NCBI RefSeq assembly: GCF_006345805.1
Contig: NW_021832158.1
Span: forward strand, 1-32,189
DNA length: 32,189 nt
Source: Octopus sinensis
Lineage: Eukaryota
Reading direction: 5' to 3'
The notes below the pieces were generated by a model. It made no database searches. It saw only the letters and a list, made by a program, of their open reading frames with translations, and was not told the DNA's origin. Positions 6,087-23,779 of the stretch are shown here, in pieces. Both the position numbers and the translations under genes were made by a program. The first letter of the stretch is position 1. Each line of letters begins with the position of its first letter.

Positions 6087-7575
6087 TTGATTTCAAATTT
6101 TGGCACAAGGCCAGCAGTTTTGAGGCGCAGTTGGTCGGTTACATCGACTCCAGTGCTCAACTGGTACTTATTTCGGCGGCGTTTGAACACAGAACGTAAA
6201 GAAGTGAAATACCTATTTCTTTATTACCCACAAGGGGCTAAATATAGAGGGGACAAACAAGGACAGACATACGTATTAAGTCGATTACATCGACCCTAGT
6301 GCGTAACTGGTACTTAATTTATCGACCCCGAAAGGATGAAAGGCAAAGTTGACCTCGGCGGAATTTGAACTCACAACGTAACGGCAGACGAAATACCGCA
6401 AAGCATTTCGCCCAGCGTGCTAACGTTTCTGCCAGCTCGCCGCCTTCGTTTTAGTAAATAAATTTTAGTAAAGAAGTGAAATACCGCTAGGCTGTTTGCC
6501 AAGCTTGCTAACGATTCTGGCAGCTTGCTGCCTTCATTTTAGTAAATATTCTTTTCTACTCCAGGCACAAGGCCCGAAATGTTGGGGGAGGAAGCCAGTT
6601 GACTATATCGACCCCAGTATGCAACTGGTATTTTATTTGTCGAGCCCGAATGGATGAAAGGCAAAGTTGACCTCGGCGGAATATGAACTCAGAACGTAGC
6701 GGCAGACGAAATATCGCTAAGCATTCGCCCGGTGTGCTAACGTTTCTTATTTTTTATTGCCCACAAGGGGCTACACATAGAGGGGACAAACAAGGACAGA
6801 CAAACGGATTAAGTCGATTACATCGACCCCAGTGCGTAAGTGGTACTTATTTAATCGACCTCGAAAGGATGAAAGACAAAGTCGACCTCGGCGGAATTTG
6901 AACTCAGAACATAAAGACAGACGAAATACCTATTTCTTTACTACCCACAAGGAGCTAAACACAGACAGGACAAACAAGGACAGACAAACGGATTAAGTTG
7001 ATTATATCGACCCCAGTGCGTAACTGGTACTTAATTTATCGAGCCCGAAAGAATGAAAGGCAAAGTCGACCTCGGCGGAATTTGAACTCAGAACGTAACG
7101 GCAGACGAAATACCGCTAAGCATTTCGCCCGGCATCCTAACGGTTCTGCCAGCTCGCCGCCTTCAATTTTAGTAAATATTCTTTTCTACTCAAGGCACAA
7201 GGCCCGAAATTTTGGGATAGGGAGCCAGTCGATTAGATCGACCCAGTACGCAACTGGTACTTTATTTATCGACCCGGAATGGATGAAAGGCAAAGTCGAC
7301 CTCGGCGGAATTTGAACTCAGAACGTAGCGACAGGCGAAATACCTGTTTCTTTATTACTCACAAGGAGCTACACACAGAGGGGACAAACAAGGACAGGCA
7401 AACGGATTAAGTCGATTACATCGACTCCAGAGCTTAACTGGTACTTAATTTATCGACCCCGAAAGGATGAAAAGCAAAGCCGACCTCGGCGGAATTTGAA
7501 CTCACAACGTAGCGGCAGATGAAATACCGCAAAGCATTTCGTCCGGCGTGCTAACATTTCTGCCAGCTCGCTGCT
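6087..7575 (-). mobile_element. Cluster of about 7 tandem/nested SINE family A units
   Basis: On + the units begin at about 6087, 6214, 6547, 6748, 6931, 7177 and 7345. Minus-strand head is AGGCGGCGAGCTGGCAGAA...GAGTTCAAATTCC (B box). Two classes of 3' tail. Confidence 0.92.
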
Positions 7576-12346: not shown

Positions 12347-12436
<90 letters not shown>

Positions 12437-12523
12437 ACTAATATAGGATAAAAAATTTTTCGGGAAAAAAATGTTATCAATGGCCAGCATATCAAAAAAT
12501 ATCTTTAAAGGTTAAATTTATAA

Positions 12524-12882
12524 ATAATTTACAAGATAAGGGCAAAAGAAAAATTCTAATCCCAAATATGCCGAAAAAAAGACAAAACTTTTCAATAACC
12601 ATTATAATTTATGCGTCCCGAAACAAAGGACTTGGTGTTTGCTTTTTCCATGGGTATGAGTAAGTATTTCACTTATATCTCGCGTATTTGCCGCTGAAGA
12701 GGAGAAAATTTCTTATTAATTAACCCCGAAATTTGGACCAATACGGTAATAACGAATTTTTTAGAATTTTCTATCGGTTTGTTTCGAGACGCATAAATTA
12801 TAATGGTTATTGAAAAGTTTTGTCTTTTTTTTCGGCATATTTGGCATTAGAATTTTTCTTTTGCCCTTATCTTGTAAATTAT
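12524..12882 (+). mobile_element. Foldback (MITE-like) element with about 104-bp terminal inverted repeats and central hammerhead
   Basis: 12524-12627 is the reverse complement of 12778-12882 with about 3 differences. The right end abuts (TA)n. Confidence 0.9.
12683..12754 (+). ncRNA. Type I hammerhead ribozyme, intact core
   Basis: Stem I TTGCCG/CGGTAA, extended by CGT/ACG. CTGAAGA at 12694-12700. Stem II GG/CC. GAAA at 12728-12731. Helix III ATT(TGGACC)AAT. Triplet ATA, with cleavage after 12743. Confidence 0.8.
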
Positions 12883-12894
12883 ATATATATATAT

Positions 12895-13092
12895 AGGGAG
12901 AGTTTACGAAAAAACAAAAGACGAAGATAGGTGGTGTAAAAAACAAACATGTATTAGTATAACGCTCAGGAATAGAAAGAGTCTTTTACGTTTCGAGCCT
13001 ACGCTCTTCTACAGAAAGGGACACAGAAAAAACAATGAGAGAAACAAGGAGAGAAAAAATGTGTCTAGTGGTTAACGATCTATCATGGCGTC
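12895..13092 (-). mobile_element. Short non-coding element between microsatellites carrying a minimal hammerhead
   Basis: About 200 bp of non-microsatellite sequence bounded by (TA)n and (TG)n. Hammerhead at 12983-13018. Confidence 0.65.
12983..13018 (-). ncRNA. Minimal type I hammerhead (Penelope-type), A6 changed to U
   Basis: Minus strand: CTTT-CTGTAGA-A-GAGC-GTAG-GCTC-GAAAC-GTA-AAAG. Confidence 0.65.
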
Positions 13093-13168
13093 TGTGTGTG
13101 TGTATATATATATATATATATAATATATATATATATATATTATATATATATATATACACACACACATG

Positions 13169-19247: not shown

Positions 19248-19795
19248 AAAACTATTACAAGTTGTGGTCACACGATAAGGTAGTGAAAGTGCTACATTGG
19301 AAACTGTGCGAAAACTGGAGGCTAGAGAGAGGCAAGACATGGTATGAGCACAAATTGCAGAGAGTGGCAGAATAGGAGACAAGCAAAATCCTTTGGGATT
19401 TCCCAATCCAAACAGATCAGGTGCTATATATATGCTATATAGTAGATGTTGCGTGCTCCTTTGACCCAGGAATAGTCAAGAAGGGAGGCGAGAAACTAGA
19501 TAAATACAACCCTCTTAAGTACGAAATAGCCCGGCTATGGAAAATGAAGAAGTGCCAATTATTGTTAAGTTCTTGGGAACAGTATCAGAAGGCATCGAGA
19601 GGAACATAAAAGAAATCGGAACCGAGTGCTCAGTAGAACTGTTACAAAGGGTTTGCCTTCTAGGCACGTCCTGAATAATAAGCAAAGTATTAGACAGTTG
19701 AAAAGAACAGATAGCTAGGCACCGTAGACTGCAGGCAGCAAGCCCGCTACGCATGCAAAACTCCAGGGGTTCCAACAAAAGCTGAAATAAAAAGA

Positions 19796-19797
<2 letters not shown>
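19248..19797 (+). mobile_element. R4/Dong-clade LINE 3' fragment (restriction-like endonuclease), internally deleted
   Basis: HDKVVKVLHWKLCE...WYEH...KILWDFPIQTD...IVDVAC...EKLDKYNPLKYEIARLW...LLQRVCLLGT. Ends in (TAA)n. Confidence 0.88.
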
Positions 19798-19845
<48 letters not shown>

Positions 19846-19849
<4 letters not shown>

Positions 19850-21116
19850 TGGACACGAAATGAACTGTCCAAAATAGATAGGAAAACAAGAAAAATACTG
19901 ACAGGATCAAGGATGCATCACCCAAAATCTGACATAGAAAGACTATATATACAACGTATAGAAGGTGGTAGAGGCCTTATACAGCTGGAAAACTACTATA
20001 AAATAACCACCATAGGACTGCAAAATACCTACTTCAGAAGGAAGGAAAACTGATCCAGATAGCAGCAAAACACGAGCAAAACAAAAAACTGTTCTCAGTA
20101 TTTAAGGAAGCTGACAAATACAAACAAGAAACCATACCACCTAATAAACACAAAGAAGAAGATGATGAAGAAACAACAAAAGCTATAAACAAATGAAATC
20201 CAAACTAAAATAGAACAGCAACGAGCCATGATAAAACAATGGCAAGAAAAGCCCCTTCATGGTAATACTGCACTAAACTAAACGCAAAAGAAATAGACAA
20301 AGAAAAATCCCAGCAATGGTTGAGAAGCTCAGGACTCAAAGCAGAAACAGAGGGATTTTTAATTGCAGCACAAGACCAAAGCCTCCCCACCAGAAATTAC
20401 CAAAAACATGTAATGAAAAGAAATATTACAAGTAACTGCAGAATATGTGGAGATGGACAAGAAGCAATAAATCATATTATCTCTAGCTGCCCAGTCCTGG
20501 CTAAGAAGGAATATATTCACAGACATGACAGAGTTGGAACCTACATACATTGGAAGCTATGCCAACATTATGGAATAACAACAGAAAAAAGATGGTATAG
20601 GCACACACCAGAAAAGGTCACAGAAAACGAGAAAGCAACCATACTCTGGGATATGCCGATACACACAGATAGAGAAATTAAGGCCAACAGACCAGATATA
20701 GTTGTCAGAGATCATGAAGAAAAAAAATGCTTTCTAATTGATGTATCAATACCGGCAGATGACAACGTGTCTCTAAAAGAAATGGAGAAACTCTCAAAAT
20801 ACAAAGACCTGGAAATAGAGGTAACCAGAATGTGAAATCTAAAAACAGAAACAATTCCTATCATAGTAGGTGCATTAGGCATGATAAAAAAATATTCAGA
20901 CAAATACATAACAAAAACACCAGGACTTACAAACACATATAACATACAGAAAATTGCACTACTAGGCACTGTACACATCCTACACAGAACACTTTCCATA
21001 CAATAACCATCAGAGCATCACAACAAATCACAACACATACCCAAGGCACACAGAGCTGCGCTCGGTAGTGAGGTGAAAGCACGCTATAAAAAATTTTAAA
21101 AAATGAAACTACTGAA
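19846..21116 (+). mobile_element. 5'-truncated R4/Dong-clade LINE (thumb, CCHC knuckle, RLE endonuclease, 3' UTR)
   Basis: HHPKSDIERLY..GGRGL; ETEGFLIAAQDQ; CRIC-x7-HIISSC; RHD; RPDIVV...IDVS...EKLSKY. A few stops and frameshifts. Flanked on both sides by (TAA)n. Confidence 0.95.
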
Positions 21117-22990: not shown

Positions 22991-23142
22991 AAGCAGCGAG
23001 ATGGCAGAATCGTTATCACATCGTACATAGCATTTGTTCTGGCTCTTTACGTCCTAAGTTCAAATTCCGAGATAAACTTCCGCCGAGATAAACTTTACTT
23101 TTCATCCCTTCAGGATCGATGAAATAAAGTGCCAGTCAAGTG
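22991..23142 (+). mobile_element. Diverged SINE family A copy
   Basis: GCGAGATGGCAGAATCGTTA...AGTTCAAATTCCG...TTTCATCCCTTCAGGATCGATGAAATAAAG. Confidence 0.75.
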
Positions 23143-23242
23143 TACGCATTAAAAACGGTGTTCAGCCATACGTTGTTGGAAATTTGCATATGTACATAGA
23201 CACACACACACGCATACATACATACACACCTACATATATACA

Positions 23243-23779
23243 TCGAATAAACTTAGAAAATCCCTCTGTTGTGGAATACATTCATAAACACCAACTCAAG
23301 GAATACTGGAGGAATATTCCCATCAAAACTTCTGTCAAATGTAAGCATAACAGACCGGATATTGTTGTTTGGGACAGAGGAACAAAAGTATGTACAATCA
23401 TAGAGGTCAGCTGCCCTGCAGATATAAATATCTCTTTGAAAATCAAAGAAAAAGATGGGATTTCTATGGACAACTGCTTTGAAACCTCCAGCTTCTATAA
23501 CCAGACTATGAATTCATATTCATACCAGTAATAATTGAAGCACTGGTTTTGTTAGTAAATGCTTGAAGGAGGATTCTGGATAAACTGTGATTTTCAGAAA
23601 GAGAAATCGACCAGCTAATTCATACACTACAAGTGCAAATTGTGAGTAGAACAGTAAAAATATGCAATACTTTTCTCAAGTTCCAAATGTGAATTTGTCT
23701 GTGTTAACTACATCCCAAAGATGGAGCCTTGTATCTTTGTTGGAAACCACTCCCTCCTCAGTGGAAGATTTATAATAAT
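23243..23779 (+). mobile_element. R4/Dong-clade LINE 3' fragment (RLE endonuclease plus 3' UTR), third subfamily
   Basis: YWRNIPIKTSVKCKHNRPDIVVWDRGTKVCTIIEVSCPAD...KIKEK...FIPVII. Ends TATAATAAT. Confidence 0.88.

What the first reader, a model, noticed from the sequence alone, without database searches (positions are those of the whole stretch)
12524..12882. 'MITE' whose spacer is an intact hammerhead ribozyme
About 104-bp near-perfect terminal inverted repeats (hence young) enclose a 150-bp spacer, half of which is a complete hammerhead (CTGAAGA 12694, GAAA 12728, ATA cleavage after 12743). Repeat finders would call this a DNA-transposon MITE, but DNA transposons have no known use for a self-cleaving RNA. 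Inference: the left arm is an inverted copy of the 3' tail made during PLE-type integration (tail-to-tail inversion), or this is a fixed foldback retro-element whose transcript is a long hairpin cut in its loop.
Basis: partly seen in the sequence, partly recalled or inferred. Interest (0 to 1): 0.85.

Follow-up and report, generated by a model that had tools for sequence, protein, structure and literature searches.

The report
Hammerhead retrozyme inserted head-to-head
What looks like a small DNA transposon is two overlapping, back-to-back fragments of a 469-base non-coding repeat with a hammerhead (self-cutting RNA) motif; it was likely pasted into a microsatellite by a Penelope-type retrotransposon, is a known kind of element, and this copy's hammerhead is predicted to be weakened.

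Summary
The inverted repeat (104/105 bp, 102 of 105 identical) and hammerhead motif are at the stated coordinates, but this is not a MITE. The insertion runs 12435-12882: an inverted arm (12435-12627) joined head-to-head to a forward arm (12628-12882) of a 469-nt repeat with at least 620 copies. The 'TIR' is only the overlap of the arms; the left arm is about 89 bp longer. Junctions vary (48 distinct of 49). The outer ends fall at two fixed 3' sites, one of each in 37 of 39 classifiable insertions. An RT+GIY-YIG Penelope-like element in this genome shows the same pattern in 7 of 7. The family hammerhead has compensatory changes in all three stems. This copy has a stem II mismatch and an extra U in stem III, so 'intact' is overstated. 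Verdict: new member of the animal non-LTR retrozymes carrying the Penelope insertion footprint. The driving element, cleavage and circular RNA remain unshown. This scan noted such ~470-nt elements before, in this genome and others.

The parts
12435..12627 (-). Inverted arm: monomer positions 279-469, 5'-truncated, ending outward at 3' site B
   Evidence: BLAST to the L025 monomer, 91.8% over 194 nt
12435..12523 (-). 'Tail' between 3' sites A and B (about 75-89 nt; site A is blurred by TA-like sequence), present at this end only
12524..12627 (-). Left copy of the apparent TIR = overlap of the two arms (monomer 279-383)
12627..12628 (.). Head-to-head junction (monomer 279/130), one shared A
   Evidence: not seen in any other examined locus
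12628..12882 (+). Forward arm: monomer positions 130-383, 5'-truncated, ending outward at 3' site A
   Evidence: 93.3% to the L025 monomer; 93-97% to the best genomic copies over the spacer
12683..12754 (+). Type I hammerhead motif: stem I 12683-12693/12744-12754, CUGAAGA 12694-12700, stem II 12701-12704/12724-12727 (A12703.C12725 mismatch), GAAA 12728-12731, short palindromic stem III (extra U in 12732-12734), predicted cleavage after 12743
12778..12882 (+). Right copy of the apparent TIR
12880..12895 (.). (TA)n target remnant at the site A end
12347..12434 (.). (TA)n/(TG)n microsatellite flank at the site B end; no target-site duplication can be read

Best explanation
This is one insertion of a 469-nt, protein-free, hammerhead-bearing repeat that lies as two 5'-truncated arms joined head-to-head in a microsatellite, and it was likely made by a Penelope-type reverse transcriptase-endonuclease acting in trans. 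Shown: the arms come from one family, their junctions vary, their outer ends lie at two fixed sites (A and B) with one of each per insertion, and the apparent TIR is their overlap. Inferred: the enzyme nicks both strands of a TA-rich target, primes one cDNA at site A and the other at site B on an uncut tandem or circular RNA, both cDNAs stop early and are joined at their ends. The family hammerhead is inferred to process tandem transcripts into monomers or circles, possibly as a dimer through its palindromic stem III. This copy is probably a dead end: 256 nt of sense strand, one weakened hammerhead.
For: Monomer of 469 nt in partial tandems; 36 of 141 arms are longer than 480 nt, the longest 1217. 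At least 620 exact copies of a 17-nt core pattern, control 0. 49 of 94 insertions in 90 loci are head-to-head, with 48 distinct junctions. Outer ends are A+B in 31 of 33 classifiable by BLAST plus 6 of 6 with a short hidden arm, p about 1e-9 against independent 50:50 ends; single-orientation copies end at A 18 times and B 19 times of 39. The two arms of one insertion are more alike than the median other copy in 31 of 37. An autonomous 781-aa RT+GIY-YIG element of this genome has two 3' ends 36 nt apart and TA flanks, and A+B ends in 7 of 7 visible inversions. Compensatory pairs in all three stems. Circular fold of the monomer z -4.9. Literature: inverted 5' copy and tail at one end (PMC8557442), two RT start sites and extension of both strands in vitro (PMC11167929), type I hammerheads in tandem repeats (PMC7229834).
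Against: No autonomous partner with a homologous terminal repeat was found in 100 PLE loci; the only hits were separate neighbouring insertions. The tail (75-89 nt) is about twice the published 30-40 nt. 16 of 49 inversions had an unclassifiable end and were dropped; 2 were A+A, and 1 of 10 readable in the second subfamily was B+B (by eye). Only 72 of 128 outer ends meet a strict TA-flank criterion. 5' ends are not enriched at the cleavage site (3 of 130, about what a uniform spread gives), so the genome gives no trace of cleavage. The loci are the top hits of about 1,200-1,900 candidates per search and lean to young, long and (30 of them) inverted copies. Arm similarity could partly reflect later gene conversion.
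Confidence: 0.88

Rival explanations
1. A true MITE (DNA transposon) that happens to hold a hammerhead.
For: 97% inverted repeats around a 150-bp spacer, AT-rich, TA flank on the right.
Against: The repeats are not terminal and are internal parts of a tandem monomer; junctions and arm lengths vary (48 of 49 distinct); no second locus has this structure; ends are asymmetric.
Confidence: 0.02
2. A fixed foldback retroelement whose long-hairpin RNA is cut in its loop and which spreads as a unit.
For: A transcript of this locus would form a 104-bp hairpin. A few loci have nearby junctions (278/123 in L032; 280/136 in L033 and L056).
Against: Those loci were picked by a junction query, are 80-84% alike there, and L033/L056 have the opposite end arrangement; none matches 279/130.
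Confidence: 0.04
3. The monomer is the terminal repeat (pLTR) of an autonomous PLE not yet sampled, so the copies are truncated PLEs and not an independent retrozyme.
For: Same ends, targets and inversions as PLEs; retrozymes are homologous to pLTRs in Xenopus (10.64898/2026.07.22.740005). Only 147 of 5029 GIY-YIG candidates were returned.
Against: Wherever a copy reads through site B it continues into monomer position 1 and not into an ORF. The longest ATG frame in six monomers is 72 aa. Two subfamilies, 81% alike, both keep the circularly permuted unit.
Confidence: 0.08
4. The inversion arose after insertion (replication fold-back, repair) or is an assembly artefact.
For: No listed public contig bridged this junction (inconclusive, since contigs break in repeats).
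Against: Half the examined insertions are inverted, with a strict one-A-one-B pattern that also holds for the autonomous element; random rearrangement would not respect two fixed ends.
Confidence: 0.03

Closest known systems
Animal non-LTR retrozymes (Cervera and de la Pena 2020, PMC7229834: passages; Li, Clavereau and Pollet 2026, 10.64898/2026.07.22.740005: parts 1-3 of 5, supplements closed)
   Same: Non-coding, low-GC (32%) unit with one type I hammerhead, head-to-tail repeats, strongly self-paired circular fold, PLEs in the same genome.
   Different: 469 nt is above the 170-400 nt RNAs of the 2020 paper but inside the 51-972 bp range of the 2026 preprint. Copies are dispersed partial tandems of at most 2.6 units in the sample. 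The passages I read do not describe head-to-head inversions or two fixed 3' ends. RNA, cleavage and circles are not shown here.
Endonuclease-containing Penelope-like elements (Craig et al. 2021, PMC8557442: passages; Frangieh et al. 2024, PMC11167929: parts 1-2 of 4)
   Same: 5' truncation, partial tandems, inverted 5' copy giving flanking inverted repeats, tail at one end, two start sites downstream of the hammerhead, AT-rich targets.
   Different: No ORF; tail about twice as long; no homology found to the terminal repeat of any sampled PLE of this genome.
Non-autonomous Chlamys elements such as MRC1 (PMC8557442, passage)
   Same: Protein-free elements with PLE-type partial tandems.
   Different: Those resemble their autonomous family at the 3' end, which was not found here; the paper says N-terminal EN+ PLEs (Naiad, Chlamys) lack canonical hammerheads.
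MITEs (definition recalled)
   Same: Short, AT-rich, inverted repeats, non-coding.
   Different: No fixed symmetric termini, no uniform size, no readable TSD.

Membership tests
Animal non-LTR retrozyme | Type I hammerhead with conserved core and three stems | tested here: met
   Core, GAAA and UA intact in 61 of 78 copies; compensatory pairs in stems I-III. This copy has two defects.
Animal non-LTR retrozyme | Head-to-tail repeats of a few hundred bp, low GC | tested here: met
   469 nt, GC 0.32; 36 of 141 arms longer than one unit. The window copy itself is less than one unit.
Animal non-LTR retrozyme | No protein coding | tested here: met
   Longest ATG frame 29-72 aa in 6 of 51 full monomers examined.
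Animal non-LTR retrozyme | Expressed as linear and circular monomer RNA | tested here: inconclusive
   No holder on record as RNA; only contigs of guessed-RNA runs.
Animal non-LTR retrozyme | Self-cleavage | not testable with these tools
   Needs an assay; 8 of 9 predicted Xenopus elements did not cleave in vitro.
PLE-type insertion | 5' truncation, partial tandem, inverted 5' copy, tail at one end | tested here: met
   49 of 94 inverted, A+B in 37 of 39.
Autonomous PLE | ORF with RT and GIY-YIG endonuclease | tested here: not met
   No ORF in the unit; tblastn of the 781-aa PLE protein finds nothing in the window.
Non-autonomous derivative of a named PLE | Homology to the pLTR or 3' end of an autonomous family | tested here: inconclusive
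   None in 100 PLE loci by blastn and nhmmer; the sample is dominated by one family.
MITE | Fixed symmetric terminal inverted repeats and uniform size | tested here: not met
MITE | Target-site duplication | tested here: inconclusive
   Flanks are microsatellite, (TG)n left and (TA)n right.
MITE | DDE transposase with matching termini | not tested
   No transposase search was run.

The most novel reading that the evidence does not exclude
Head-to-head Penelope-type insertions follow a near-strict rule, one arm started at each of two fixed RNA sites, that holds for both a protein-free hammerhead repeat and an autonomous PLE of the same genome. That would mean one enzyme complex primes both DNA strands in a coordinated way, and that this retrozyme recruits a PLE enzyme with no terminal-repeat homology, by RNA structure around the two start sites.
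Probability: 0.5. Interest if true: 0.55.

Novelty: new member of a known kind. Interest (0 to 1): 0.3.

Why it matters
As a locus it is ordinary: one of hundreds of copies, probably inactive. It shows that Penelope-type inversions can pass for MITEs in repeat annotation. The family adds genomic support for the proposed mobilisation of animal retrozymes by PLEs, and the one-A-one-B count gives a testable prediction for how PLE tandem and inverted insertions form, which PMC8557442 names as an open question.

Tried and rejected
Rfam: no hammerhead model among the 150 listed of 186 window matches or in 12440-13095. Unconstrained fold of 12680-12760 is no better than shuffles. Constrained folding puts the hammerhead form 7.0 kcal/mol above the minimum for this copy against 0.8-1.0 for three typical copies, but 6.6 for a second-subfamily copy with perfect stems, so the measure is weak. 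A constant sum of junction coordinates (structure-guided switching) was considered by eye and rejected. Enrichment of 5' ends at the cleavage site: none (3 of 130). Partner search: monomer-like hits next to PLEs in L154/L171 and L167/L186 are separate insertions, absent from other full-length copies. No RNA holder listed. Laying contigs of guessed-RNA runs on L102 and of four runs on the window could not show expression, circles, editing, the junction or the extra U. In one search the 12 'unpaired' cells at columns 68-74 come largely from misaligned tetraloop variants. Paper searches: (0 papers; octopus + Penelope + hammerhead ribozyme: only PMC8557442; the organism word was my guess, not tested) gave listings only beyond the papers read. 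I found no count of A/B end pairing in the passages read; supplements were not read. Small-RNA and A-to-I mapping were not possible.

Full report
Observation. The arms 12524-12627 and 12778-12882 are 104 and 105 nt with two substitutions and one indel. Rfam lists no hammerhead here and the free fold is unremarkable, so the motif had to be tested on copies.

The family. The spacer has 1875 first-look candidates in G000, 2.72 Gb. A 17-nt core pattern occurs exactly 620 times, its reversed control 0 times. Four DNA searches gave 120 loci, 90 of them distinct; these are top hits and not a random sample. They define a 469-nt monomer that occurs in partial head-to-tail tandems: 36 of 141 arms are longer than 480 nt, the longest 1217. 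A second subfamily is 81% alike. No long ORF exists in the six monomers examined.

Anatomy of this copy. The insertion is 12435-12882. An inverted arm (monomer 279-469) at 12435-12627 is joined to a forward arm (monomer 130-383) at 12628-12882. The 5' ends meet and the 3' ends face outward. The 'TIR' is the part present in both arms. The remaining ~89 bp of the left arm is family sequence between two alternative 3' ends, site A (383, blurred to 394 by TA-like sequence) and site B (469).

MITE and foldback tests. Of 94 insertions of at least 100 nt, 49 are head-to-head and show 48 distinct junctions. A search with the window's junction found no other locus with it among 40 scored candidates. 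Fixed symmetric ends are therefore absent.

The end rule. Of the 49 inversions, 16 had an end that could not be typed and were dropped; of the other 33, 31 have one A and one B end and 2 are A+A. Six further copies carry a short hidden inverted arm, all A+B. Together that is 37 of 39, p about 1e-9 against independent ends; single-orientation copies end at A 18 times and at B 19 times of 39. In the second subfamily 9 of 10 readable inversions are A+B by eye. The two arms of an insertion are more alike than the median other copy in 31 of 37 cases, mean 0.950 against 0.929, which fits one source element, though conversion could add to it.

Autonomous elements. A GIY-YIG search returned 147 matches from 5029 candidates. 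Two ORFs of 781 and 775 aa carry RT and GIY-YIG, and sampled copies show paired cysteines before the nuclease, as described for Neptune and Nematis PLEs. The 781-aa family has its own hammerhead-like motif (by eye), two 3' ends 36 nt apart and TA flanks, and A+B ends in 7 of 7 inversions with both ends visible among 46 loci; two of these may be one duplicated segment. No sampled PLE has the monomer as its terminal repeat, so the driver is unnamed.

The hammerhead. On 78 copies (76 distinct) 96.2% of pair cells are standard against 26-42% for slid controls; stem II position 3 is G-C in 47 and A-U in 20. On a chosen set of 31 sequences from both subfamilies, five pairs change on both sides, in stems I, II and III, while the core varies essentially only at position 7. 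Related copies count events more than once; this is roughly five independent changes. The architecture (4-bp helix II, short palindromic helix III that favours a dimer) matches canonical metazoan type I motifs (PMC4209133, passages). The window copy has A.C in stem II (6 of 78) and an extra U in stem III (1 of 78). Its stem II has near-zero predicted probability against 0.86-1.0 in four other copies, so it is probably weakened; this is a prediction only.

Mechanism. Shown: structure, copy number, variable junctions, two fixed ends used once each, conserved hammerhead. From the literature: PLE copies are 5'-truncated partial tandems, often with an inverted 5' copy that forms flanking inverted repeats and a tail at one end (PMC8557442). 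A purified PLE protein cuts and extends both strands at AT-rich DNA and starts at two internal RNA sites that bound the tail, using mostly uncut RNA (PMC11167929). Inferred: a PLE enzyme primed one strand at A and the other at B on an uncut or circular RNA; 112 of 141 arms cross the cleavage site (biased by the queries) and 5' ends are not enriched there.

Comparison and novelty. The element fits animal non-LTR retrozymes (PMC7229834; 10.64898/2026.07.22.740005), with expression and cleavage untested. It works like a non-autonomous PLE; it is not an autonomous PLE and not a MITE. Earlier notes of this scan describe ~470-nt hammerhead repeats with the same footprint in this genome and others, including the two-end rule; I saw them after my own tests. 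A look-up by sequence returned nothing. Verdict: new member of a known kind, interest 0.3.

Noticed in passing
window 12896-13090, minus strand: A copy of a second high-copy family (3029 first-look candidates, best hits 92-95%) abuts the TA run. It has a fixed 3' end into TA repeats and a hammerhead-like motif with an unusual core (CUGUAGA, hairpin, GAAA, two-base palindrome, UA); probably another PLE-type element.
   Followed up: partly
L172:4072-6414, L175, L173, L154 (G000 C3, C19, C6, C1): A young autonomous PLE family with intact 781-aa RT+GIY-YIG frame, an overlapping upstream frame of about 480 codons in L154 and L175, and 40 of 40 scored copies identical over 145 terminal bases: likely recently active.
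   Followed up: partly
L175 tail versus monomer site B: Both tails end with a small hairpin followed by ATCCT and an AT-rich run; a possible shared recognition signal, seen by eye only.
   Followed up: no
L185, L157, L169: A second PLE family (775 aa) has a hammerhead-like motif with core CCGAAGA or CUGAAGA and a palindromic stem III in its 3' region.
   Followed up: no
L025:659-1836 and L171: Tandem duplications of a whole inverted insertion (589 bp) and of a 5.9-kb block holding a retrozyme copy and a PLE.
   Followed up: no
window 19715-20835 and 23076-23531: Reading-frame fragments that look like the 3' part of RTE-type LINE proteins (resemblance recalled, not tested).
   Followed up: no
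window 6748-7114: Two tandem copies of a 184-bp SINE-like repeat (label recalled).
   Followed up: no
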